From NCBI RefSeq assembly GCF_964194155.1, contig NC_135909.1, positions 12,586,001 through 12,650,000 on the forward strand: a DNA stretch of 64,000 nt. The letters are read 5' to 3'. Positions 1,762 to 64,000 of the stretch are shown piece by piece. The translations under genes were made by a program, and so were the position numbers. The notes beneath the pieces are model-generated. The model ran no database searches. It was not told the origin of the DNA and was given only the letters and a program-made list of their open reading frames with translations. Numbering within the stretch: the stretch's first letter is position 1; every line of letters begins with the position of its first letter. This DNA comes from Cetorhinus maximus (Eukaryota).

Positions 1762-2679
1762 ATTTAAATTCGCATTAACACAAAAAAAAATTTGTCTGCG
1801 ACACAAAATCACCTCTGAATTTGCTTCATAGTAAATTTACATCAGCTTCTTGCTTCCGGTGAACACTTCAATCTGTAACCAATCTCTCAAATCGTTTTAT
1901 TTCACACACGAACGCAGCAGAAGTGCTGCAAAAATACACCAGCCGAAGATTTCCCCTTTCTCTCAGCCAATTTCAGGCCATGGTCCGAAGGGCCTTCCCT
2001 TGCTCTCTATCACTCTATGATTATCTGAGTAACAAAAAAGAAAACAAATATCTTATTTGTACCCGATATAGTGAAGTTTATACATATTACCTTCAGCATA
2101 TCCGATTTACAGGACACCCTGCAGTAATTCCCATGCTTATTTGGACAGCAGCGTCCACCCTGAGACATGGACCATGAGAAGGACAAGATTATCAGCATAG
2201 TGGAAACAACATCACGTCAAAGACACAGATAATTATTGTTTTGACAGATATGATTGTTCATTCTTAATCACTTATTTAAAAAATGGAATTCCATCCCCAA
2301 TATCACCATGAACTGGGAAGGTTTCATTCCTTCAGGTTTGCATTCGAGACACATTGTACAAAACACTCTATGAGTGTCTCTGGTCAATGAACGGATGATG
2401 CGCGGAGATCTCAGCTTTTACTCATTGATCTTCGCAAAAGTTGATCCAGTTTTGACGTTGACTTTTCCTCTGGTGTCGATTTACTCGAATTCCTCACCTG
2501 ATTTCTCTGCTGTCCAATGAAGCTCACTCAGCAGAGTTTTCAACATTAATTTGATTTTTTCCTCACAGGATTTCAATCACCATGTTTTTGAACAATTTGT
2601 TAAAAAAAATTCTTCCAGGAGCAGCGATGTGATAAAGAAAATATAATCTGTTATAAAGTGATTTTAATTGAGGGATGAA

Positions 2680-2900
2680 TGTGGGCTCCGACACGACGGA
2701 ATAACTCCCCCGCCCCTCTCCGAAATGGTGCTTGGTATACTGTACCTGAGAAGGCAGAGGGCACCTCAATTTACCATATCATCTAAAAGCTGGCACGACT
2801 AACAGTGAAGCATTCACTGATTACTGCACTAGTGCGTCAGCCTGAATTTGTGCTCAGGATTCTGGAGTGAGTTTTGAACTCACAACCTGCTGATTGTGAA
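2680..2900 (-). mobile_element. Decayed tRNA-derived SINE, Deu-domain-like (duplicate at ~13460-13660)
   Basis: GGAATAACTCCCCCGCCCCTCTCCGAAAT...CCTGAGAAGGCAGA...TTTGAACTCACAACC resembles the reverse complement of a DeuSINE (SacSINE1/SINE3-type) core and B box. Confidence 0.55.
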
Positions 2901-3511
2901 AAGCAAGAGAACAACTGACTGGATAATAATTCACAGCAAAGGATAGACGACAGAAGACATTTCACTCCAAGGAGAGGCTGAAGTAGATTGTTAATTGAAG
3001 AAATGTCACAGGCATTGAGAGATAAACACCCACAGTTGAAAGAGACCGACTTTTTCTCACGGCAGGGTGAGAGATTGTAGCAGGAATTTCGATTCCCAAT
3101 GCTTCTTGGCAACACCCCAGAACAAGCTAAATAGTTTGCACACTGCCCGCTAGACTAAAAAACGAAGCTAGAATGTTATTTAATCATCGTAATAGTTTCA
3201 ATCAGATCGACCCTGAAACATTGATATTCACGGTATTACAGGAAACGTCATAACTTGGGTCTGATACAACAATGGTAATTTCAGATTTCCTTTCTGCATA
3301 ACGCCGTCCCATAAAGAAACAAGATTTAAACTCACGCGTGGGAAGCACAGTGGATGAGCAGCCTTAAATTCAGATAATCATGGAGTGATTAGCGACATTA
3401 TCCCGACGCCACCTCCTCTGTAAACCTGGCCTCGGAAAGATTACATCAGTGATTTCAGACATGCCTTCTGAAAAAAGCACCGCGTTCACGAAGAACCAGT
3501 TAATAAACTGA

Positions 3512-3593
3512 CGACAAAGGTGGGATTCGAACCCACGTGTGCAAAGCACAATGGATTAACAGCCCATCACCTTAACTTCTCGGCCACCTCGTC
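3512..3593 (-). pseudogene. tRNA-Ser(GCT)-type gene with anticodon mutated to GTT; probable pseudogene
   Basis: Reverse complement GACGAGGTGGCCGAGAAGTTAAGGTGATGGGCTGTTAATCCATTGTGCTTTGCACACGTGGGTTCGAATCCCACCTTTGTCG; Ser long variable arm; D-loop TGG changed to AAG. Confidence 0.88.
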
Positions 3594-4100
3594 ACGAGTA
3601 GCTCCTTTATTAAACATCCTTCCGTACTTTTTTGCATTCATGAACTGCTTGTTCCAGGTCCTGAATAATCAATCAGGTGTCTCATGTAGTTTGTCAATAA
3701 AATACATATCCATCACATCAGATATGAACTGTTGTAAATCGACTAATGTGAATCACTTCAACTCTTCAACATGTTTCTAGACAGTGTGAAAACCCATCGC
3801 GGAAATTCCGAAACATACATTCATCTGGAAGAATAAAGAAACTCCTTCCGACTCACAGCAAGTACCGGAACACAACTGAAATGTGGTTTCTCACTCAAGA
3901 CTGTAACTGACAGCAATCAGCATCCGACAGAGCTCACAAGGAGAGAGTTGCCGTATTCGATGTATTAGGAGAAACTTTGCGTTCATTTTCTGTGTTGTGA
4001 TTTATTCTCCGCAATGATTTCCCGGATGTTCAAACCTGGTCCTGATTTCCCCAACTGGCACCGGCTCGAGCACACGAATTAATGTATTAAAATGCCGGTG

Positions 4101-4191
4101 GGGCTCGTACGGGTATTGAACCCGGGACCTCTCGCATATTAATTCACTACAAATACCCAAAGCGAGAATCAGACCCCTAGACCAATGAGCC
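4101..4191 (-). tRNA. tRNA-Pro(TGG) with 19-nt intron (4137-4155); a few stem mismatches, possibly a pseudogene
   Basis: GGCTCATTGGTCTAGGGGTCTGATTCTCGCTTTGGG-[TATTTGTAGTGAATTAATA]-TGCGAGAGGTCCCGGGTTCAATACCCGTACGAGCCC, followed by TTTT ~9 nt downstream. Confidence 0.88.
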
Positions 4192-4289
4192 AGGCGCTAC
4201 AAAAACCGCAATCAACATATCCTTTCATTGCCACCCACAGGAAATTAACAAAATGCGAAATACTGTGGATGCTGGAAATCTTTTGGAAT

Positions 4290-4575
4290 GTATTAGAAAT
4301 CCCGGGGCCGACTCCAACCAGTGGAGAGCTTCCCTCCTTGTATAATTTAAATTCAGTTTTGTTGGGTTTCTCAGTGCCACACTCTGCCAAATGCTTCTGT
4401 AAAGTCAACTGTGGTCACTTGCAACTCACGCCTTGAGTCCAGCTCTTTTGTCCATATTTGGACCAAGGCTGCAATGAGGTCGGGAGCTGAGTGGCCCTGG
4501 CGGAAACCAAACTGAACTTCAGTGAGCAGGTGATTGGTGAGTTAGCGCCACTTGCTCGCACTGTCGAAGACACAG
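4290..4575 (-). mobile_element. Inverted L2/CR1-group LINE RT fragment
   Basis: Resembles the reverse complement of ~6230-6500 (CCCTGGCGGAAACCAAACTG = QFGFRQG). Confidence 0.75.
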
Positions 4576-7495
4576 CAATGTGGTTGACTCTTAAATGCCC
4601 TCTGAAATGGCCTAACAAGCCTCTCACTTGTAACACACCGTGACAAAGTCAAAAAAAGGGAATAGAACTGGACGGACCATGCGGCATCGATCTCGGCATC
4701 GTCAATCTCAGCCCTGTCCAGCCTGCAAAGTCCTCCTTACTAACATCTGGGGGCTAGTGCCGAAATTGGGAGAGCTGCCTCACAGACTAGGCAAGCAACA
4801 GCCTGACATAGTCATCCTCCCAGATCATGTCCCAGGTTCCACCATCACTATCCCTGGATATGCCCTGTCCCACCGGTAGGATAGGCCCAGCAGAGGTGGC
4901 GGCACAGTGGTATACAGTCGGGAAGCAGTAGCCCTGGAAGTCCTGAATATCACCTCTGGACCCGATGAAGTTTCAAGGCATCAGGTCAAACATGGGCAAG
5001 GAAACCTGCTGATTAAGACGTACCGCCCTCCCTCAGCTGAGGAACCAGTGCTTCTGCATGTTGAACACCAATTGGAGGAAGCACTGAGGATGGCAAGGGC
5101 ACAGAATGGCCTCTGGGTGGAAGGATTCAATGTGCATCACCAAAAGTGGCTCGTTAGCACCACTACTGACCGAGCTGGACGAGTCCTAAATGATATAGCT
5201 GCTAGAATGGGTCTGTGGTAGGTGCTCAGTGAACCAACAAGAGGGAAAATCATACTTGAGCTTATCCTCACCAATCCGCTTGCCGCAGATGCATCTGTTT
5301 GCGACACTATCGGTAGAAGTGATTATCACACAGAAGTTGCAGAGACGATGTCCCAACTTCACATTGAGTTAGTCTCCATCGTGTTGTGTGGCACTACCAC
5401 CGTGCTAAATGGGATAGGTTTTGAACAAATCGATCAACTCAAAACAGGGCATCCATGAAGCACTGGGAGCCATCAGCATCAGCAGAATTGTACTCGAACA
5501 CAATCTGTAAACTCATGGGCTGGCATATCTCCCACTATATCATTACCATCAAGCCAGGTGATCAACCCTTGTTCAATGAAGAGTGCAGAGGGCATTCCAG
5601 GTGCTGCACCCGCCTTATATCAGTTATAGCCTAATAATGAGTTGTCAACCTGGTGGAGCTATAGCACAGGACTACTTGCGTGCCAAACAGTATCTGCAGC
5701 AAGTGATAGACAGAGCTAAGCGATCGCACAACCAACGGGCAGACATTAACTCTGCAGTCCTGCCACATCCAGTTGGGAATGGTGGTGGACAATTAAACAA
5801 TTCACAGGAAGGGACGCCACAAATATCCCCATCCACAATAATGGAGGACATCAGCACTAGCGATAAGCATGTGCTACAAGAAGTGTCGAGTGGATGATCC
5901 ATCTCAGCCTCCTCCAGAGGTCCCCAGCATCACAGATGCCAGTCTTCAGCCAATTCGATTCACTCCACATGATTCCAAGAAACAGCTGAAGGCACTGGGT
6001 AGTGCAAAGGCTACGGGCCCTGACAATATTCTGGAAATAGTAGTGAAGATTTGTGCCCCAGAACTTGTCACGCCCCGAGCCAAGCTTTTCCAGTACAGCT
6101 ACAACACTGGCATCTACCCGGCTATGTGGAAAATTGCCCAGGTATTTCCTGTACACAGAAAGCATGCCAAATACAACCTGGCCAATTACTTCCCAATCAG
6201 TCTACTCTCGATCATCAGTTATGTAATGGAAGGTGTCATCAATAGTGCTATCAAGCGGTACTTGCTTAACAACAACCCGCTCACTGACTCACAGTTTGGG
6301 TTCCGCCAGGGCCACTCAGCTCCTTACATCGTTACAGCCTTCTTTCAAACATAGGCAAAAGAGCTGAAATCCCTAGGAAAGGTGAGAGTGACTGCCCATA
6401 ACATCAAGGCCGGATTTGCCTCAGTGTGGCATCAAGGAGCGCTTGGAAAACTGGAGTCAATGGGAAACAGGTGGAAAACTCCATTAGTTTGGAGTCTTGC
6501 CTAAGGCGTTCAGTCATCTCAGCTGGAGGATATCACTGCAGGAGCTCCTCAGGGTAATGTGCTCGGCCCAACCATCTTGCACTGCTTCATCAACGACCTT
6601 TCTTCCATCAAAAGATCAGAGGTGGGGATGTTCGCTTGTAATTTCACAATGGTCAACACCATTCGTGATTCCTCAGATACTGAAGCGGTCCATATCCAAA
6701 TGCAGCAAGACCCGCACAATACCCAAGCTCGGGCTGAAAAATGACAAGTAACAATCATGTCACATAAGTGCCAGGCAATGGCCATCTCCAACAAGAAAGA
6801 ATCTAACCACTGGCCCTTGACGTATAATGGCGTTACCACCACTGAATCGCCCACTCTCAACATCCTGAGGGTTACTGATGACCAAAAACTGAACTGGACT
6901 AGCCTTATAAACACTGTCGTTACAAGGGCAGGTCAGAGGCGAGGGATTGTGCGACGAGTAACTCACCTCCTGACTCTCCAAAGCTTGTCCAGAATCTATA
7001 AGGTACAAGTCAGGTGTGTGATGGAATGGTCGCCAATTTCCTGGTGGAGTGCAGCACCCACAACAATCAGGAAGCTTGGCATCATCCAGGAGAAAGCTTG
7101 AATTACACCACACCCATAAACATTCACTCCCTCCACCTCCGTCGCATCTCCAAGATACATAGAGGAATTCACCAAGCTTCTTTAAACAGCACTTTACAAA
7201 ACCACGACCACTACGGTCGAGAAGGGCAAGGGAAGCAGCTACATGGGAACATCACCACCTGAGAGTTACCCTCCAAGACACACGCCATCTTGGCTTCGGA
7301 ATATATCACCTTTCCTTCACTGTCGCTCAGTCAAAATCCTGGGACTCCCTTCCCCGCAGTGCTGTGGGTGTACCTACACCACATGGACTGCAGCGGATCA
7401 AGAAAGCAGCTGATCACCATCTTCTCAAAGGCAACTAGGGATGGGCAATAAATGCTGGCCCAGCCAGTGAAGTGCACATCCCATGAATGAATAAA
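4576..7495 (+). mobile_element. Long, decayed L2/CR1-group non-LTR retrotransposon (APE endonuclease + RT; stops and frameshifts)
   Basis: Broken ORFs 4640-7101 with NIWGL, YRPPS, FNVHH, KATGPDNI, WKIAQVFPVH, NYFPISLLS, QFGFRQGHS, LGPTILHCFINDL; 3' end GGGCAATAAATGCTGGCC...ATGAATGAATAAAA. Confidence 0.9.
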
Positions 7496-19097: not shown

Positions 19098-19187
19098 CGA
19101 CCACGGCAGGACTCGAACCTGCAATCTTCTGATAACCTCACCAAGTACCATCGAAGTCAGACGCCTTATCCATTAGGCCACGCAGTC
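19098..19187 (-). tRNA. tRNA-Arg(TCG) with 17-nt intron (19134-19150), apparently intact
   Basis: GACTGCGTGGCCTAATGGATAAGGCGTCTGACTTCGA-[TGGTACTTGGTGAGGTT]-ATCAGAAGATTGCAGGTTCGAGTCCTGCCGTGGTCG-TTTT; A and B boxes intact, all stems pair. Confidence 0.93.
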
Positions 19188-26114: not shown

Positions 26115-26204
26115 GAGCTCGCCTGAGATTTGAAACAGAGACCGCTCACATTTTCACTTATAAAACGTCCCATAGCGAGAATCACACGGCGAGACCAATA
26201 ATGT
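26115..26204 (-). pseudogene. tRNA-Pro(TGG) pseudogene with 18-nt intron (26151-26168)
   Basis: Reverse complement TTGGTCTCGCCGTGTGATTCTCGCTATGGG-[ACGTTTTATAAGTGAAAA]-TGTGAGCGGTCTCTGTTTCAAATCTCAGGCGAGCTC. Confidence 0.78.
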
Positions 26205-26588: not shown

Positions 26589-26679
26589 GGGCTCGCCCGG
26601 GATTTGAACCCGGGACCTCTCGCACGATCATTTAACGAAAATCCCCGAAGCGAGGATCATAGCTCTAGAACAACGAGCC
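26589..26679 (-). tRNA. tRNA-Pro(CGG) with 19-nt intron (26625-26643); D-arm damaged, likely a pseudogene
   Basis: GGCTCGTTGTTCTAGAGCTATGATCCTCGCTTCGGG-[GATTTTCGTTAAATGATCG]-TGCGAGAGGTCCCGGGTTCAAATCCCGGGCGAGCCC. Confidence 0.85.
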
Positions 26680-32921: not shown

Positions 32922-33012
32922 CGACTCTGGTGGGATTCGAACCCACAACCTTTAAATCTCTTGTACAACAGCAGCTAGAAGCCCAACACGCTATCCGTTG
33001 CGCCACAGAGCC
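32922..33012 (-). tRNA. tRNA-Arg(TCT) with 18-nt intron (32958-32975); weak anticodon stem
   Basis: GGCTCTGTGGCGCAACGGATAGCGTGTTGGGCTTCTA-[GCTGCTGTTGTACAAGAG]-ATTTAAAGGTTGTGGGTTCGAATCCCACCAGAGTCG; three G-U pairs in the anticodon stem. Confidence 0.9.
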
Positions 33013-54672: not shown

Positions 54673-55278
<606 letters not shown>

Positions 55279-55307
55279 AACCCGGCTTCAGCACCAAGTA
55301 CAACAAA

Positions 55308-55323
55308 GGCTCTTTTAAGAGCC
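55308..55323 (+). terminator. Histone 3' stem-loop (H3)
   Basis: GGCTCTTTTAAGAGCC; HDE AAAGAGCTG at 55340-55348. Confidence 0.97.
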
Positions 55324-56047
55324 ACTAAATCGACAAATGAAAGAGCTGCAATCTCCTGTTGTCCACTCCAGGACTTAGACATCGCGAAGATACAATTTGC
55401 TCCCTTGCATCAGTTTATTTTTCTTGTCTACAAACCTCTTTTGTGGGATTGATAATCACAGACGATGCAGTTGTAAATTGTAGCGCAGATGGTATATTAA
55501 TTTCAGCAGAAAATTGGGACTGCGGTCACCTTAGTGCTGTAGGTCACTTCCAATAAATAGCGGCTGTGAAAATGTATTAAATACTGCGAGCAGACATCAA
55601 TCCCAAGCAAAGGGTGAGCTGCGGGTTACAAGTCAGTGCTCATGATGTCAATAAAGGCAATGCCTCAAGCAACAAGAGGTGATGACTCCGGTGCACAGAC
55701 ATAGAATCAAAGAATTTGCACAGCACGGGAGGCCATTCGGCCCTTGCGCATGTCTGCATCTGCTCTCCAAATGAGTGTTATGACCTAATGCTTCCCCCCA
55801 TCCCCCATTCCTGCACATTTTTTCTATTCAAATAATCATCTAATACCCTCTTGAATGCCTCTATTGAACCTGCCTCCACTACACTTCCAGAGAGTGCATT
55901 CCAGTCCCGAACCACGCGGGTGGAAATGTAATTTCTCTGTTGATGCGAGTTGGTTGTCCTTGCGGATCATTAGAAACGCTTCACCATTACTGAAATTCGG
56001 CACGCAGCAGACAGACAATAGATCACCCTTTCACAGACTCTGTGAGT

Positions 56048-56063
56048 GGCTCTGAAAAGAGCC
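56048..56063 (-). terminator. Histone 3' stem-loop (H2A)
   Basis: Reverse complement GGCTCTTTTCAGAGCC; HDE GAAAGGGTG downstream. Confidence 0.97.
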
Positions 56064-56093
56064 GTTGGCTTATCAGATAAAAGAATGGCCGCT

Positions 56094-56495
<402 letters not shown>

Positions 56496-56543
56496 TCACA
56501 AACACTTTAATAGAGAATGAGGAAATCCTCTCACATTCGCTTC

Positions 56544-56750
56544 TCTTATAGCTTCGGGAGGAATGGTGCTGCGGGCATTGCTTGATTGGTCACTTTGTGC
56601 TGCGTCTCATAATGTTGTTCATATCACCAATCAGATATCTACTGAACTCACCAATCCGGAGACTTGACGGAGTGAGGGCGGAAAAAAACGGCGCCAAATT
56701 TTGAGATTCCAACCGATCTTTTTTTCAAATTTTAAAAGCCCGCCAAATTT
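56544..56750 (-). promoter_or_regulatory. H2A promoter: TATA, CCAAT boxes and E2F-like sites
   Basis: TATAAG (-) at ~56546-56550; ATTGG at 56585, CCAAT at ~56627 and ~56651; GGCGCCAAA at ~56690 and CCCGCCAAA at ~56739. Confidence 0.65.
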
Positions 56751-56799
56751 GTAAAAAAAAAAGCCAAAAAAGAACGGATCGAACATAGTACTAATTGGA

Positions 56800-56897
56800 T
56801 AAAAGCAAAATACAGACGATGCTGGAAATCTGAAACAAAAACAAAAATACCTGGAAAAATTCATCTACGGAGAGGAACACAGTTGACGTTTCGAGTC
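56800..56897 (-). mobile_element. Truncated Penelope-pLTR-derived insertion
   Basis: GATGCTGGAAATCTGAAACAAAAAC...AGTTGACGTTTCGAGTC; TSD CTAATTGGA on both sides. Confidence 0.75.
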
Positions 56898-57738
56898 CTA
56901 ATTGGAAATGGTTATTCAGTATTTAGTATTCGAATGTTACATTCTCTTCATCTCTCTCTCTCTTTCCCTGGATTACAGTTTTTTGTATATTTCAATTTCT
57001 GATTTTCTGTCTGGGTTTATGTGTATCTGAAAACAAGTCGAAAATAACGGCGCAAATTTACGGAATGTATTTTTTTAATTCGACATCGATATATTTATAA
57101 AACAAGAAATACATTTCATATAGAAAATCCAGTTAATAGTGAACACGGTCTGACGACAAAGTTTTAAAAATGTCCGTCCCTAATGGGACTATTTCACATT
57201 TTATCCTAAATTCCGGATTCGCTTTAAGAATCCGGCATCAATTCTAGATAATCTCGATCCGTCATGAAACCTTCTAAGCAGCCGGCTGAAAGTGCCATTT
57301 ACACCGTTCTGCTGATAGACGGGAAATTGTAGATATTTGGGACAGCCAAAATTGAACATACTTGGAGTCAATTTGCCAGCGTCGAGACTGAAGTTTGCTG
57401 CACAACCGGTGTTAATAGGAAATCAGTTGATCGATTATTGAGGCGAAACTTGAACCGAATTGGAACCTGAGGCATTTGCGTTAAATTCGCTCTCTCTCCA
57501 AAACCAGGGACAGGGGTCGAATATGACGCGTCTTAAAACAATCGCTTCGTGAGCGGCAAGTCATTAATTTATGGGACATCATTAACGAAGCCCAACAATT
57601 GAACGAGTTAAATCTACGTTACCGAGAATCTGATTGAAACGTGATCAAAATAATAATTTCAAAATTCGAAATGCTCCATAGTAAAATCATAACTTGTAAC
57701 TAAAGAAATCATATAGCTTTTTCAGAGAGATTGTGGGT

Positions 57739-57754
57739 GGCTCTTAAAAGAGCC
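57739..57754 (-). terminator. Histone 3' stem-loop (H2B copy 1)
   Basis: Reverse complement GGCTCTTTTAAGAGCC followed by ACCCA; HDE GAAAAAGCT. Confidence 0.97.
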
Positions 57755-57793
57755 GTTGTGTTGTGAATGTGTTTTTCAGTCAGTTCGGGGGTC

Positions 57794-58168
57794 TTACTTG
57801 GAGCTGGTGTACTTGGTCACCGCCTTTGTCCCTTCCGACACGGCGTGCTTGGCCAGTTCCCCGGGCAGCAGCAGGCGCACGGCGGTCTGGATTTCCCGGG
57901 AGCTGATGGTGCTTCGCTTGTTGTAATGGGCCAGGCGGGAAGCCTCACCCGCGATGCGCTCGAAAATATCGTTCACGAACGAGTTCATGATGCTCATGGC
58001 CTTGGAGGAGATGCCGGTGTCGGGGTGAACCTGCTTCATCACTTTGTAGATGTAGATGGCGTAACTCTCCTTCCTCGACTTTCGCCGCTTCTTGCCGCCC
58101 TTTGCTACCGGTTTCTTTAAGGCTTTCTTGCCTCCCTTCTTGGGAGCTGGTTTCTTCTCATCAACCAT
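57794..58168 (-). CDS. H2B: Histone H2B copy 1 (124 aa)
   Basis: [19 protein letters not shown]...[23 protein letters not shown]...KYTSSK; the ATG lies downstream of the TATA/octamer-like promoter. Confidence 0.98.
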
Positions 58169-58211
58169 CGTCACTTTCAGACACAGAATAAAACGAACCA
58201 CTTCCGAGCGC

Positions 58212-58370
58212 CGATTAAATAGACAGTCTGACAGACCAATGCTAATGAGGAATGGGGAAACGATGATTCTGATTGGACATTTAATAAAATACAACAGCCA
58301 CTTATTTTGTACTTTTCTCTGTTTGCATTTTTAAAGTGGCCAATCAAATTTCGACTTCTCGACCAATCAT
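58212..58370 (-). promoter_or_regulatory. H2B promoter: TATTTAA, octamer variant ATTAGCAT, CCAAT boxes
   Basis: TTAAATAG at ~58216; ATGCTAATGAGG at ~58239-58250; the same motifs occur at 63171-63207 before copy 2. Confidence 0.75.
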
Positions 58371-58659
58371 TAGCCCTTTTACGACAATCAGGAAATATAT
58401 TCTATCAGGATTCTCTCCAGTCCCAGTTTCTCAGTTTGTGAAGATACACCGGGAATTGTTGTCTGGCTGTCGGTGCGAGGGGCCTTTCTCCACAGAGGGA
58501 CTGCACGGAAATGCGGGATTCCTCCCGGAACTCTTGTAACTTGTGCGACTTACTCACTGGGATATTGTGTATGTGTGTGTGAGTGGTAGGGGGTTGGAGT
58601 ATCGGGAGTGAAATTTGTTCTTGAGGCTGTGGTCCGCTGTAACAAACACTCACACAGTC

Positions 58660-58820
58660 ATAAAAACAAAAAAACTACTGCGGATGCTGGAAATCCAAAA
58701 CAAAAACAGAATTACCTGCAAAAACTCAGCAGGTCTGGCAGCATCGGCGGAGAAGAAAAGAGTTGACGTTTCGAGTCCTCATGACCCTTCAACAGAACAG
58801 AGTCATGACTCTTCAACTCA
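58660..58820 (-). mobile_element. Penelope-pLTR-derived insertion with hammerhead-like motif
   Basis: Minus strand GTT-CTGTTGA-AGGGTC-ATGAG-GACTC-GAAACGTC-AAC. Confidence 0.8.
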
Positions 58821-58949
58821 CGCACACACATTATTAAAGAATGGGAGTTTCAGAATGATTCCCAAATTTAGATTCAGGACCATTGAACTATATTAAAATA
58901 ATCCCATAATCAAACCATGTATGATATCCTGACAGTTATAGAAAGAATC

Positions 58950-59610
58950 TTCCATCCACAGCCACACGTGTTACCAGTGACTGACAAATACAGCCAGAGT
59001 CCTACACGTAAACTCAGCACCAGAGGCTGAGTAATACAGGATTAATTACACATATACACAGAAATAAAGACAAAAACATCCCCACACAGACACTCTACCA
59101 GAGACTAAGAGATAGAAAATGAATTTCCAGTACCACTGAACAATTCAGGTTGAGTCCCAAAAGCTCAATCTGTACCAGAGCCTGATAGATACAGAAAGAA
59201 TGCCTTACAAACAGGCCAAAGCTTCACAGTTACATAGTCAGACATCAATTACCAAAGACTGGCAGTTACTTAAGGAGAAAACACTCACAGTATCACGAAG
59301 TGGTAAATACGGAGTCAATTCCACAGTCACACATCACAAAGTCCAACAGATATGGAATGAATCTCTCACATGTACAGTGTCAAAGACTGACATGCAAATT
59401 TCACATTCAAATGTCATACTAATAGAATGGAAAATTGAGAATGAATCACATACTCACATTCAGGTTCATGAATCACAGATAAAGTTTGAATCACACATTC
59501 ACATCGCTTGCCAGGTGCCAACAGACATACAATTGATCCCAGCTTTATATATAGTACCAGAGACTGACTGGTGCAGAATACACCTGAATCTCACATCGAG
59601 CAGAATAGAT
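58950..59610 (-). repeat. Degenerate ~45-bp array, reverse orientation
   Basis: Recurrent GTACCAGAGACTGACA...ATACAGAATGAATC, the reverse complement of the 45-50 kb unit. Confidence 0.7.
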
Positions 59611-59629
59611 GGACTGATGCATTAAACCT

Positions 59630-60740
59630 TCAGAAATAGGAGCTGGACTTGGCTATTTGGCCATTCGACCTCCTCCATCATTCATTCAGACAGATGTTCT
59701 ACCTCAACTCCACTTTGCCGCACTCTCCTTATATCCCTAGTATCCAAAATCAATTGACCTCTGTCTGGAACATACTCAATGGCTGAGCTTCCAAATCTCT
59801 CTGGGGTGGAGAATTCCAAAGAATCTCAACACTTTCAGTGAAGACATTTCTCCTCATATCATTCCAAAATGGCCAATGCTGTGATCTGAGATGGTGACCA
59901 CATGTTGTAGATTCCGGAGCCAGGAGAACCATTTTCTTAGCATCTACCCTGACAAGCCGCTTAAGAGTTTTATTTGTTTCATTTAGATAACCTGTATTCT
60001 TCTAAAATCCAGGGAATATAGACCTAGTCTCCTCAATCTCCCCTCATAAGAAATCCACTTGTCACAGAAACCAAGCTAGTGAACAATTATTGCCCTCCCT
60101 CTAAAGCAACTATGCCCTTCCTTATGTAAGGAGACCAAACTGCACACAGTACTCCAGGTGTAGCCTTAATTGTGCCCTGGATAAATGGAAGATTTTTCAC
60201 TCCTGTAATTCAAACCTTTGGAACAAATGTGAACATAACACTTCCCTTCCTATCTGCTTGCTGTACCTGCAGTTTTACTTTCTATAATTCATGTACAAGG
60301 ACACCCAGCTCCCTCTGAGTGCAAACGTGTTCCAGTCTCACATTCAAACATGTTCTTTTTCCCCCCTTCAAAACTGGGCCCACCCACACTACCATATTGT
60401 ATTCTATCTGCCATGTTCTTGACAACTCAGACAACCTGTCTAAATGCCTTAGCAGGTTTTTTGTGTCCTCACAGATTAATTTTCCACCAATTTTGTATCA
60501 TCAACAAACTTGAATATGTTCCATTCAGTACCCAACTAAATCATCAATATATGTTGTAAGTAACTGATGGCTGTGTTTTATCAAGAGTAAGTTAGAGCCT
60601 GCCAATCCGAAAATTCCTGTTTATTCCGACACTGTTTTCTGTCCATTTACTAATCCTTGATCCATGCTAATGTTTGATCCCCAATCACATGTTCTAATTT
60701 TGTGTAATAAACTCCTGTGTGGGACCTTTGCAAATTGCTG
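59630..60740 (-). mobile_element. CR1 3' fragment
   Basis: CCAAACTGCACACAGTACTCCAGGTG, GTACAAGGACACCCAG, CTCCTGTGTGGGACCTT. Confidence 0.8.
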
Positions 60741-61979
60741 AGCAAAATTACACCCCCCTCAGATTGCAAGGCCCTGTGTTACCAAAACAAAAGGAGAACC
60801 TTAAATACACATTAAATGACAAAGAGATCAGACAAACAGTACCCACTTGTAAGATCTTGCATGAATCCCAATATTGTACCCATACTACAGACTGAACTAT
60901 GCATTACATACCACTCCCTAAACCTCAGAGTGTCTACAAGCTAGATGAAGCTGATCATACACATCGGGTAATGTATCAGATTGTGTGATATACAGACATT
61001 CAGGGTTGTGTTGACAGAGATGGAATTTTAATCCAAAACTCTGACATAATAACTGATTAATACCCACAGCTATTAACTCCAGTTGAAACACATTTTATAT
61101 TAAACATAAGTCAGGCTTACACTCATGCTACATAGATTAGAATCTCGCAATTGTTACAGCAGAGGGAGGCCACTCAGCCCATCGTATCTGTGCCAGCTCT
61201 CTGCAAGAGCAGCTCAGCTGCTCACATATTCTTCCCCGCAGGCCTGTTTAATTTTCCTTTTGTTCTTTTTCTATTTTTCTTTGTGCAGTGAGCTCAACTT
61301 ATCTATTCACATGCACACAATTGATTCTATTTATGGACAGCGGTCATATCCATTCGACATCCATCCTTTTCCGAGGTTAATAGGCCCAGCTATTCTAAGC
61401 CAGTGCTGATTACTGATGAGGTTTCAACTGCAACATGGATAACTCTATATTGGGATTCATGTATCTGCCATCCCCTTCTCCATTACCCTTTACACTCCCT
61501 GATAGCATGTTTAGTTGCCCTGAGCTGTGTCTGGTACCTATCCCAAAATTCTCCTACTGCAGTATAACTGCTTTCATTGGATTTGCCACAGCAAATGAGG
61601 AAGGATCTACCTTGGTTTGTTTGGTTTTAAACACCACTTTTCAAATTCACTCTCCCAGCGAGAAGCCTGATCTACTAAGGATGTAAATCAGAAATTCAGA
61701 CTTGTATTCTACCTGATTTCCAGGCATTGAAATTAATTTCCAGCCAGATTCCTGTTTTGCACGACCCAGTGGGGAATCTCCTCACTCACAACACAAGGTG
61801 AGATAATTACAGGTCTAAAGAGCAGTTGACAAGTCTGACTTTTTAAACATTTATGTGTATAAAGATTGCTAAATATTTTAAAAAAAGATTGTCAATCTGA
61901 TATGAAAATGTGAACTTAACGCTGAAGTGGAGAAATTTTCAGGTAGACCCAATTCTGCAAACACCTAGAGAGTTAGTAA

Positions 61980-62830
61980 TCACTGGTCCCAGAGATGTAG
62001 AGATACAGAATGAATCTGACATTCACACAGTACCACAGACCAAGAAACACAGAAAAATCTTACAGCCAAAAACTGATAGGGACAAAATGAATCCTTCATT
62101 TCTGCAAAGCATCAGGCACTGAGTTAGAAAATGGCTTCAACGCTTACACAGGGTACCAGAGTCCATCAGAAACAAAATGATTTGCAAGCTTCCATAAAGT
62201 ACCACTGATTGAGAGAGAATTGATCCCACTCATACCAATACTATCCATTGAGGCAAATTCTACATTGTCAGTCTTTGGTGCCGAATGTGACAGTGGGGTT
62301 ACTTCTGTCAAAAATTGCAAGAGATGGACCTATTGAGAATAAATTACACACTTTGAATCAGTACCAGAGACTGACCGATACAGACTGAATTTCACACTCC
62401 CATTCAGCAAAGGATGTTGACAGGTACAGAGTTAATCTCACATTCACACACAGTATCAGATATTGACAGTGAATGAGAAGTTCAGACTCAGAGATAGTAC
62501 CACAGGCTGAAAGACATAGAATCAATACAACTCTGACCTACAATGACAGGGACTGACAAATAAAGAATCTCATTCACATACAGTTACAGAGATTGACATG
62601 TACAGAATAAATCCAATACTTTTCGTGGCCGAGAGAAACACATGCTGATTTAATTCCGCACTGTCTTATAGTCCCAAGGAGCCAATAATTTCACTTACAT
62701 GCACCAATAACGGACAGATGCACAATGAGCCTCAGGATATCAAGTGAATCCAACACTGAGACATGGTCCCATCAAGTCACAGACACAGAAGAAATCCAGC
62801 CCTCGCACACTGTACCACGGCCTTCCAAAC
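61980..62830 (-). repeat. Degenerate ~45-bp array, reverse orientation
   Basis: GATACAGAATGAATCTGACATTCACACAGTACCA at ~62003; CAGTACCAGAGACTGACCGATACAGA at ~62359. Confidence 0.75.
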
Positions 62831-63259
62831 AGTGAAGGAACCCCACTCTCACACACAGAATCAGGGAGTGAATAAATCCCACAATCACAGACTTTACCAA
62901 AGCCTCACAATTCCTGAGGGAACCCCACATTACCGTACAGTCCCTCGCACCGACTGCCAGGCGACATTTCCTGGTGTATCTTTACACACTGAGAAATTCC
63001 GCCTGGAGAGGGTCTTTGTAAAAAGTATTTCCTGATTGCAGTAAGGAGGCCTATGATTGGTGGAGAAAGCTAAATATGATTGGTCGATTTCTCTATCCAA
63101 TCAAATAAATCACAAATTAAGAACTTGTTTTCTTTTAAAAATGTCCAATAAGAATTGTTGTTTTCTCATTCCTCATTAGCATATATCTGTCAGACTGTCT
63201 ATTTAATGAGCGGACGGAAGGGGTTTGGTTTATTTCTGTGGCTGAAATTGAGATTGAAG

Positions 63260-63637
63260 ATGGTTGAAGAGAAGAAGAAACCAGTTGCTAAGAAGGGCGC
63301 CAAGAAAGCGGTGAATAAGCCGTCAGGAAAGGGCGGCAAGAAGCGGCGAAAGTCGAGGAAGGAGAGTTACGCCATCTACATCTACAAAGTGATGAAGCAG
63401 GTTCATCCCGACACCGGCATCTCCTCTAAGGCCATGAGCATCATGAACTCGTTCGTGAACGATATTTTCGAGCGCATCGCGGGTGAGGCTTCCCGCCTGG
63501 CCCATTACAACAAGCGCAGCACCATCAGCTCCCGGGAGATCCAGACCGCCGTGCGCCTGCTGCTGCCCGGGGAACTGGCCAAGCACGCCGTGTCGGAAGG
63601 GACAAAGGCGGTGACCAAGTACACCAGCTCCAAGTAA
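63260..63637 (+). CDS. H2B: Histone H2B copy 2 (125 aa)
   Basis: [37 protein letters not shown]...KYTSSK; core protein identical to copy 1. Confidence 0.98.
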
Positions 63638-63676
63638 AACCCCCGAACGGACTGAAAAACACATTCACAACACAAA

Positions 63677-63692
63677 GGCTCTTTTAAGAGCC
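63677..63692 (+). terminator. Histone 3' stem-loop (H2B copy 2)
   Basis: GGCTCTTTTAAGAGCC; HDE AAGGAGCTG at ~63709-63717. Confidence 0.97.
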
Positions 63693-64000
63693 ACTCACAA
63701 TCTCTACTAAGGAGCTGCACCCGACATCTTCCTACTGGATTATTATAATATAAAATAACTTCCACTGCTGTTAGTGTCTCCTGTCCTGTAACCCAGACAC
63801 TAACCCTTTAATTAGCTCATCGGCCTTCGCTTTGTGCTGAAAGCGGTTATTCTGTTATCACAGCCTTTAAGTGACCTCATTAGCTGCTGTTTTCAACTTT
63901 AATTGTCCCTTCCCCCAATTCCTGAAACAGTTACTGAGTCATTTTATTAATTTTCCGCAGGGTAACAGCCGGAGTGGGATTATTACAGAGCGGAATAAGA

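What the first reader, a model, noticed from the sequence alone, without database searches (positions are those of the whole stretch)
4101..4191. tRNA-Pro(TGG) with a 19-nt intron at 37/38
Seen: a vertebrate Pro body with TATTTGTAGTGAATTAATA inserted after G37. U32 and U33 can pair with intron A(-3) and A(-4), so the anticodon-intron pair is kept, and TTTT follows. It also has A6:C67 and C49:T65 mismatches, so this copy may be decaying. Known: Pro(UGG) introns are standard in budding yeast but are not a normal vertebrate family. Inference: this belongs to a real intron-bearing Pro family, since two more copies occur at 26.1 and 26.6 kb.
Basis: partly seen in the sequence, partly recalled or inferred. 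Interest (0 to 1): 0.75.

Follow-up and report, generated by a model that had tools for sequence, protein, structure and literature searches.

The report
Shark proline tRNA genes with introns
Most proline tRNA genes found in this shark genome carry a short intron that the main human proline tRNA genes lack; dozens look intact and are likely spliced by the ordinary tRNA enzymes, while the flagged copy is a damaged, likely non-working duplicate.

Summary
Confirmed: window 4101-4191 (-) is a tRNA-Pro(TGG) gene with a 19-nt insert after G37. The genome is a shark's. The family is real: 92 of 100 listed Pro genes with an intact 5' exon carry an intron, 7 do not, and 1 could not be scored. All three anticodons are involved. 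Of 150 intron copies on hand, 51 keep all stems, invariant bases, the anticodon-intron pair and a nearby terminator. Three subfamilies show lower exon than intron or flank diversity. It is not a SINE. The flagged copy is damaged (G6A, A21C, U60A, G65U) and lies in a recent segmental duplicate. Two intact intron-bearing Pro(AGG) genes sit between CALU and TNPO3, likely the position of a 72-nt intronless human housekeeping Pro gene (human gene order recalled). Arg(TCG) also has introns in 51 of 52 hits. Splicing and expression are untested. [quoted passage not shown]

The parts
4101..4191 (-). tRNA-Pro(TGG) gene with a 19-nt 37/38 intron; degenerate copy (G6A, A21C, U60A, G65U; A59U family variant)
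   Evidence: cloverleaf energy -17.8 versus -28.1 kcal/mol for intact genes
4156..4191 (-). 5' exon (positions 1-37) with an intact A box
4137..4155 (-). 19-nt intron; A(-3), A(-4) and T(-6) can pair with U32, U33 and G35
4101..4136 (-). 3' exon (positions 38-73) with the B box carrying U60A
4089..4092 (-). run of four T, likely Pol III terminator
2595..5695 (.). stretch (at least 3.1 kb) present elsewhere on contig C32 at 99.3-99.5% identity: recent segmental duplicate that carries the gene
   Evidence: 7 of 8 such loci match over the whole 3.1 kb, one over 1.7 kb
26589..26679 (-). tRNA-Pro(CGG) with a 19-nt intron; defective (G10T, G19C, T26C, A66G; no T-run until 50 nt downstream)
26115..26204 (-). 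heavily decayed tRNA-Pro(TGG) relic with an 18-nt intron (19 substitutions)
19098..19187 (-). tRNA-Arg(TCG) with a 17-nt 37/38 intron, C32:G(-3) pair and an immediate T-run; member of a second intron family not among the human ones
32922..33012 (-). tRNA-Arg(TCT) with an 18-nt intron (ordinary vertebrate intron family), some substitutions

Best explanation
The flagged gene is a damaged, likely non-working duplicate within a large family of shark tRNA-Pro genes (AGG, CGG, TGG) that carry a 12-19 nt intron after G37, whose intact members are likely transcribed by Pol III and spliced by the ordinary TSEN/RTCB machinery. Shown: intron position, copy numbers, exon integrity, terminators, pairing potential with the anticodon loop, and DNA-level duplication on C32. 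Inferred: Pol III transcription; TSEN recognition of the mature domain and the U32:A(-3) pair; cutting and ligation to a mature tRNA that matches, or nearly matches, the product of the intronless genes. Because each anticodon also has at least one intronless gene, splicing would add to Pro supply rather than be its only source. The C32 tRNA/histone cluster multiplies the genes by segmental duplication, and many copies decay, including all three in this window.
For: Counts: 97 exact-pattern genes with an intron versus 7 without. The intron-blind 5'-exon search gave 102 hits; of the 100 listed, 92 have an intron, 7 do not and 1 was unscorable. Census of loci on hand: 150 intron-bearing and 8 intronless. 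73 of 150 keep all 20 stem pairs and the invariant positions; 51 of 150 also keep the 32:(-3) pair and a T4 within 20 nt (3 of these have A37); 14 of 150 have exons identical to the intronless genes apart from base 34. Between ten flank clusters, exons are 88-100% identical while flanks are mostly 30-45%. Diversity at 38 exon positions outside the search pattern versus intron versus upstream flank: AGG 0.007/0.057/0.072 (n=16), CGG 0.026/0.107/0.103 (n=25), TGG-a 0.045/0.144/0.124 (n=36). Anticodon-intron helix: 25 of 35 possible pairs in 7 lineages versus 16.1 in shuffles, p=0.002; U32:A(-3) in 6 of 7, p=0.007. Human TSEN needs this pair for 3' cleavage (bioRxiv 2020.08.03.234229). Flagged copy: four defects; 8 scored copies share them; its subfamily has more exon than flank diversity (0.099 versus 0.04-0.05, n=8).
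Against: No RNA evidence of any kind. All 27 CGG copies have U32 opposite U(-3), so the canonical pair is missing, and 20 of the 22 otherwise clean CGG copies lack a T4 within 20 nt. Counting G-U pairs, position -3 alone is not significant (6 of 7, p=0.07), and the lineages are not fully independent. Copies were picked by exact patterns, which favours intact ones. Of five dispersed intron copies only the two on C12 are clean; C4, C7 and C22 are damaged. Rfam listed 8 of 13 intron-bearing test genes (41-49 bits, against 54-57 for intronless) and missed three clean ones as well as the flagged copy. Intronless genes could cover all Pro decoding, so the intron copies may be dispensable.
Confidence: 0.8

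Rival explanations
1. All intron-bearing Pro genes are silent pseudogenes, multiplied passively with the histone cluster; the 8 intronless genes supply all tRNA-Pro.
For: 77 of 150 copies break a stem or an invariant base. All three window copies are defective. Recent duplication can copy dead genes, as the flagged subfamily shows. The human 95-nt Pro-AGG-3 gene is nearly silent (0-4 reads versus 13,794-107,975 for Pro-AGG-1/2; PMC10791582 supplement).
Against: The two C12 genes have identical exons but unrelated introns (8% identity) and flanks, each with a T-run 2-3 nt downstream. Exon diversity is 3-8 times lower than intron diversity in three subfamilies. Pairing with the anticodon loop exceeds shuffles.
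Confidence: 0.12
2. The sequence is the tRNA-derived head of a SINE, and the 'intron' is an insertion in that head.
For: High copy number. tRNA-derived repeats are abundant in some cartilaginous fish (over 9500 tRNA-Ala hits in elephant shark; PMC8450103 passage).
Against: The 5'-exon pattern gives only 102 hits in 4 Gb, nearly all within 8.9-21.5 Mb of one contig. Copies share upstream as well as downstream DNA over kilobases, which is duplication at DNA level. Between lineages, homology ends at the tRNA gene, and T-runs follow at once.
Confidence: 0.03
3. The flagged copy itself is expressed and spliced, giving an unstable or non-coding tRNA-like RNA or a source of free introns.
For: A box, anticodon arm, U32:A(-3) pair and terminator are kept. 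Nine near-identical copies exist.
Against: A21 and Y60 are lost and two stem pairs are broken. Its subfamily shows no exon constraint.
Confidence: 0.15

Closest known systems
Vertebrate intron-containing tRNA families Tyr(GUA), Ile(UAU), Leu(CAA), Arg(UCU), spliced by TSEN and RTCB
   Same: Single short intron at 37/38, anticodon-intron pair, intron sequences that vary among family members, and mixed intron/intronless families as for human Arg(UCU) and Leu(CAA) (PMC10275265 passages).
   Different: The isotype is Pro in all three anticodons (and Arg-TCG). Human high-confidence intron genes number 28, which equals 13 Tyr + 5 Ile + 5 Arg + 5 Leu, leaving none for Pro. The base at 32 is U, and the CGG lineage has U opposite U(-3).
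[quoted passage not shown]
   Same: Same clade, same kind of cluster (more than 300 tRNA loci beside histone genes), and same general observation of many intron-bearing tRNA loci.
   Different: Its main text names no isotype: 'proline', 'Pro' and 'arginine' occur 0 times. It does not separate intact from decayed copies or discuss synteny. Fig. 3A and the supplements could not be seen and may hold the isotype breakdown.
Budding yeast tRNA-Pro(UGG) intron family
   Same: Same isotype and site; 10 intron-containing genes in S. cerevisiae (PMC4090602 passage). Across GtRNAdb eukaryotes, UCG, AGG, UGG and CGG fall in the upper third of 45 anticodons for intron content (axis order of Fig. S7, PMC12168002).
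   Different: In yeast every family member has the intron; here intronless genes coexist. Common descent of the yeast and shark introns was not tested.
Human tRNA-Pro-AGG-3-1 (chr16)
   Same: Annotated span of 95 nt, 23 more than a plain Pro gene. That this is an intron annotation is recalled from GtRNAdb.
   Different: Single copy and almost no mature reads. Its relation to the shark family was not tested.

Membership tests
Canonical eukaryotic tRNA intron (TSEN substrate) | Insertion between N37 and N38 | tested here: met
   Comparison with the genome's own intronless genes places all 150 inserts after position 37.
Canonical eukaryotic tRNA intron (TSEN substrate) | Short length (6-133 nt, PMC4090602 section 5) | tested here: met
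   12, 17, 18 or 19 nt.
Canonical eukaryotic tRNA intron (TSEN substrate) | Pyrimidine 32 pairs with a purine at intron position -3 | tested here: met
   Met in the flagged copy, in 81 of 84 TGG and in 31 of 31 AGG copies.
Canonical eukaryotic tRNA intron (TSEN substrate), CGG lineage | Pyrimidine 32 pairs with a purine at intron position -3 | tested here: not met
   0 of 27 CGG copies, 0 of 3 TGG copies derived from them, and 0 of 8 GTG mutants. The CGG representative keeps pairs 33:-4, 34:-5, 35:-6 and 36:-7.
Canonical eukaryotic tRNA intron (TSEN substrate) | Precise removal in vivo or by TSEN in vitro | not tested
   No reads were laid on these genes and no RNA data were examined.
Functional tRNA-Pro gene (family level) | Intact cloverleaf, invariant bases, A and B boxes, nearby terminator | tested here: met
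   51 of 150 intron copies, none of them CGG.
Functional tRNA-Pro gene (flagged copy) | Intact cloverleaf and invariant bases | tested here: not met
   Pairs 6:67 and 49:65 broken, A21C, U60A; -17.8 versus -28.1 kcal/mol.
Functional tRNA-Pro gene | Pol III transcription and aminoacylation | not testable with these tools
   Needs ChIP or tRNA-seq and charging assays.
tRNA-derived SINE | Shared tRNA-unrelated body downstream of the head | tested here: not met
   Downstream 40 nt are 28-57% identical between cluster representatives; BLAST matches end at the gene.
tRNA-derived SINE | Dispersed insertions with unrelated upstream flanks | tested here: not met
   Clustered on C32, with kilobases of shared upstream DNA.
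tRNA-derived SINE | Target-site duplications and a simple-repeat tail | not tested
   Not examined, as the two features above failed.

The most novel reading that the evidence does not exclude
Introns in tRNA-Pro (all three anticodons) and tRNA-Arg(TCG) are an old jawed-vertebrate feature that sharks kept and amplified and that the human lineage lost. The CALU-linked Pro(AGG) locus is a direct case of intron loss at one orthologous, still active tRNA gene, and the C32 cluster is a spliced, possibly oocyte-type tRNA supply.
Probability: 0.35. Interest if true: 0.65.

Novelty: new member of a known kind. Interest (0 to 1): 0.45.

Why it matters
The vertebrate set of intron-bearing tRNAs is usually taken from human and mouse (Tyr, Ile, Leu, Arg-UCU). 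This shark adds Pro and Arg-TCG, in families with both intron-bearing and intronless genes. How eukaryotic tRNA introns are gained or lost is open (PMC4090602 section 18). A locus that appears to hold intron-bearing genes in a shark and an intronless housekeeping gene in human would let the direction and timing be read across vertebrate genomes. The CGG lineage is a natural test of whether TSEN tolerates U opposite U at the anticodon-intron position. It also matters for annotation: ARAGORN mislabels these genes. The splicing mechanism itself is ordinary, and the general abundance of such loci in sharks is already in a preprint.

Tried and rejected
Sequencing runs: no RNA holder listed. DNA or unlabelled runs of one organism hold 20-53% of the words and may be the source of the assembly. 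No reads were laid on any gene, so expression, splicing and presence in other species stay open. The genome search holds no relatives of this genome. ARAGORN at a relaxed threshold gave mostly noise. Rfam scores do not separate dead from intact copies because its filter missed three clean genes. Minimum-energy folds of precursors did not give clean cloverleaves, nor did that of the intronless control, so they were not used. Five fetched loci (L008, L100, L101, L114, L208) dropped out of the ungapped census. Pfam on 118 frames near the dispersed loci gave one host gene hit (importin-beta N-terminal) and three retro-element hits; no neighbours were identified for C6, C7, C8, C16 or C22. Ten literature searches found no paper describing intron-bearing Pro or Arg-TCG genes in a vertebrate. 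A recalled 1990 note on chicken Pro genes, the Schmidt and Matera review and two CLP1 papers were not held. A bird tRNA paper has 0 uses of 'intron'; a zebrafish tRNA paper and the tricRNA paper gave nothing relevant in the passages seen. Earlier findings of this scan: none related. SINE head and chance insertion were rejected for the reasons given above.

Full report
Observation. The - strand of 4101-4191 reads as a 36-nt 5' exon ending at G37, a 19-nt insert and a 36-nt 3' exon of tRNA-Pro(TGG). Against the genome's own intronless Pro genes it differs at G6A, A21C, A59T, U60A and G65U, which breaks pairs 6:67 and 49:65 and two conserved positions; a T4 follows after 8 nt.

Organism and setting. 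The window is G000:C32:12,586,001-12,650,000 in a 3.99-Gb genome. The closest full-length relatives of an H2B gene in the window are shark proteins, the best (96-99%) labelled basking shark. In 464 kb of C32 around and including the window, ARAGORN with introns gave 55 calls, 31 with a plausible B box. They are Leu-CAG, Ser-GCT, Thr-AGT, Phe, Gly-TCC and intron-bearing Arg-TCT, Arg-TCG and Pro, many decayed. Histone genes lie at 54-64 kb of the window.

The family. An exact two-exon pattern found 97 genes with a 12-19 nt insert (89 on C32, 3 on small contigs, 1 each on C4, C7 and C22, 2 on C12) and 7 without; the reversed control found none. An eighth intronless gene has a swapped 31:39 pair. 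A search blind to the intron, using the 5' exon only, gave 102 hits; of the 100 listed, 92 carry an intron, 7 do not and 1 lacks a scorable 3' exon. Among 158 Pro-like genes in the loci I fetched, 150 have an intron (84 TGG, 31 AGG, 27 CGG, 8 mutated to GTG). 73 keep all 20 stem pairs and the invariant bases, and 51 of these also keep the 32:(-3) pair and a T4 within 20 nt (34 TGG, 17 AGG; three have A37). Five fetched loci dropped out of this ungapped scan, and all counts are lower bounds.

Signs of selection. Flanks sort the copies into ten clusters. Between them exons are 88-100% identical, introns 8-84% and flanks mostly 30-45%. The two C12 genes have identical exons, unrelated introns and immediate T-runs. 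Within subfamilies, diversity at the 38 exon positions outside the search pattern is below intron and upstream-flank diversity for AGG (0.007, 0.057, 0.072; n=16), CGG (0.026, 0.107, 0.103; n=25) and TGG-a (0.045, 0.144, 0.124; n=36). It is above them for TGG-b, the flagged copy's subfamily (0.099, 0.052, 0.049; n=8). Selection by exact pattern favours intact copies, so this is supportive, not proof. Pairing of bases 32-36 with intron positions -3 to -7 occurs in 25 of 35 cases over seven lineages against 16.1 in shuffles (p=0.002; 18 of 25, p=0.006, with one C32 lineage only). Position -3 alone gives p=0.007 for U:A but p=0.07 when G-U counts. Against this, every CGG copy has U opposite U at -3, and 20 of 22 clean CGG copies lack a near terminator.

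Not a SINE. Seven loci match the window over the whole 3.1 kb tested at 99.3-99.5%, upstream and downstream alike, an eighth over 1.7 kb, and older paralogues match at about 90% and 70%. Other lineages match over little more than the gene. This is segmental duplication. Eight scored copies share the flagged copy's four defects, so the damage came before the latest duplications.

A syntenic contrast. The C12 pair (20,310,075-20,311,685) lies 12 kb after the last coding exon of calumenin and 20 kb before an exon of transportin-3. TNPO3 and CALUA flank the SWS1 opsin in teleosts (PMC3116502, one passage). Human tRNA-Pro-AGG-2-3 is at chr7:128,783,449-128,783,521, spans 72 nt and is classed as housekeeping (PMC10791582, supplementary rows). 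That it lies just past CALU and OPN1SW, with TNPO3 about 170 kb further on, is recalled, not from a call. If right, one locus holds intron-bearing genes in the shark and an intronless one in human. Direction cannot be told from two species. Human Pro-AGG-3-1 spans 95 nt and gives 0-4 reads, which may be a relic.

Second family. Arg(TCG) genes carry a 16-17 nt intron in 51 of 52 exact hits. All 12 intron copies read in full have G at -3 opposite C32, and 11 have an immediate T4. All 26 Arg(CCT) and Arg(CCG) hits of a looser pattern are intronless.

Mechanism. By established knowledge, Pol III reads the internal A and B boxes, TSEN binds the mature domain and needs the anticodon-intron pair for the 3' cut (bioRxiv 2020.08.03.234229, passages; PMC10485636, passages), and RTCB ligates. 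The intact AGG and TGG genes fit this. I put it at 0.8 that they are spliced and that the flagged copy is a weak or dead duplicate.

Prior knowledge. Animals' intron-rich tRNAs are given as Tyr, Ile, Leu and Arg-UCU (PMC12168002, section 12 and supplement passages; PMC10275265, passages). [quoted passage not shown] PMC4090602 (passages, section 5 and part 1 of section 18) treats intron gain and loss as open. My ten searches found no description of Pro or Arg-TCG introns in a vertebrate, but the library lacks most subscription papers. Automatic annotations probably list these genes, and I could not check birds, frogs or bony fish.

Verdict. Real feature and real family; ordinary splicing type; unusual isotypes for a vertebrate; the flagged copy is likely dead. 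New member of a known kind, interest 0.45.

Noticed in passing
window 19098-19187 (-) and C32 8.97-21.5 Mb: tRNA-Arg(TCG) genes with a 16-17 nt intron in 51 of 52 exact hits; a single intronless gene on C27.
   Followed up: partly
G000:C32:9512617-9512665 and 11129300-11129348: Two intron-bearing Arg(TCG)-type genes whose anticodon reads TCA (UGA-reading), likely decay of the CpG.
   Followed up: no
L023, L024, L018, L022, L027-L030: Eight Pro-body copies with U32A and G35U, giving anticodon GTG; seven also break pair 49:65.
   Followed up: partly
L036 and 26 other CGG copies: U32 faces U(-3) while 33:-4, 34:-5 and 35:-6 can pair. The intron ends in G as exon 1 does, so a one-base shift of both cuts would give the same product.
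   Followed up: partly
window 3512-3593 (-): ARAGORN's 'tRNA-Asn(GTT)' is a Ser(GCT) body with a changed anticodon (compare the Ser-GCT copies).
   Followed up: yes
L070, L075, L080, L181, L191, L194: ARAGORN mislabels intron-bearing Pro genes as Lys-CTT, Ser-GCT, Ile-AAT, Thr-CGT or Ile-TAT.
   Followed up: yes
L087:6579-7545 and L084:9676-9987: Intronless Pro pairs (AGG plus TGG with a swapped G31:C39 pair; CGG plus AGG) resemble, from recall, human pairs on chr11 and chr1, suggesting long-conserved loci.
   Followed up: no
window 54673-63717: H3, H2A and two H2B genes with four histone stem-loops, interleaved with the tRNA cluster.
   Followed up: partly
L220:8793-9254 (G000:C12:20,288,793-20,289,254): Calumenin has two tandem alternative EF-hand exons. 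No opsin was looked for between CALU and TNPO3.
   Followed up: no
G000:C16:28.2-28.6 Mb: A separate cluster of 12 intronless Arg(CCT/CCG) hits.
   Followed up: no
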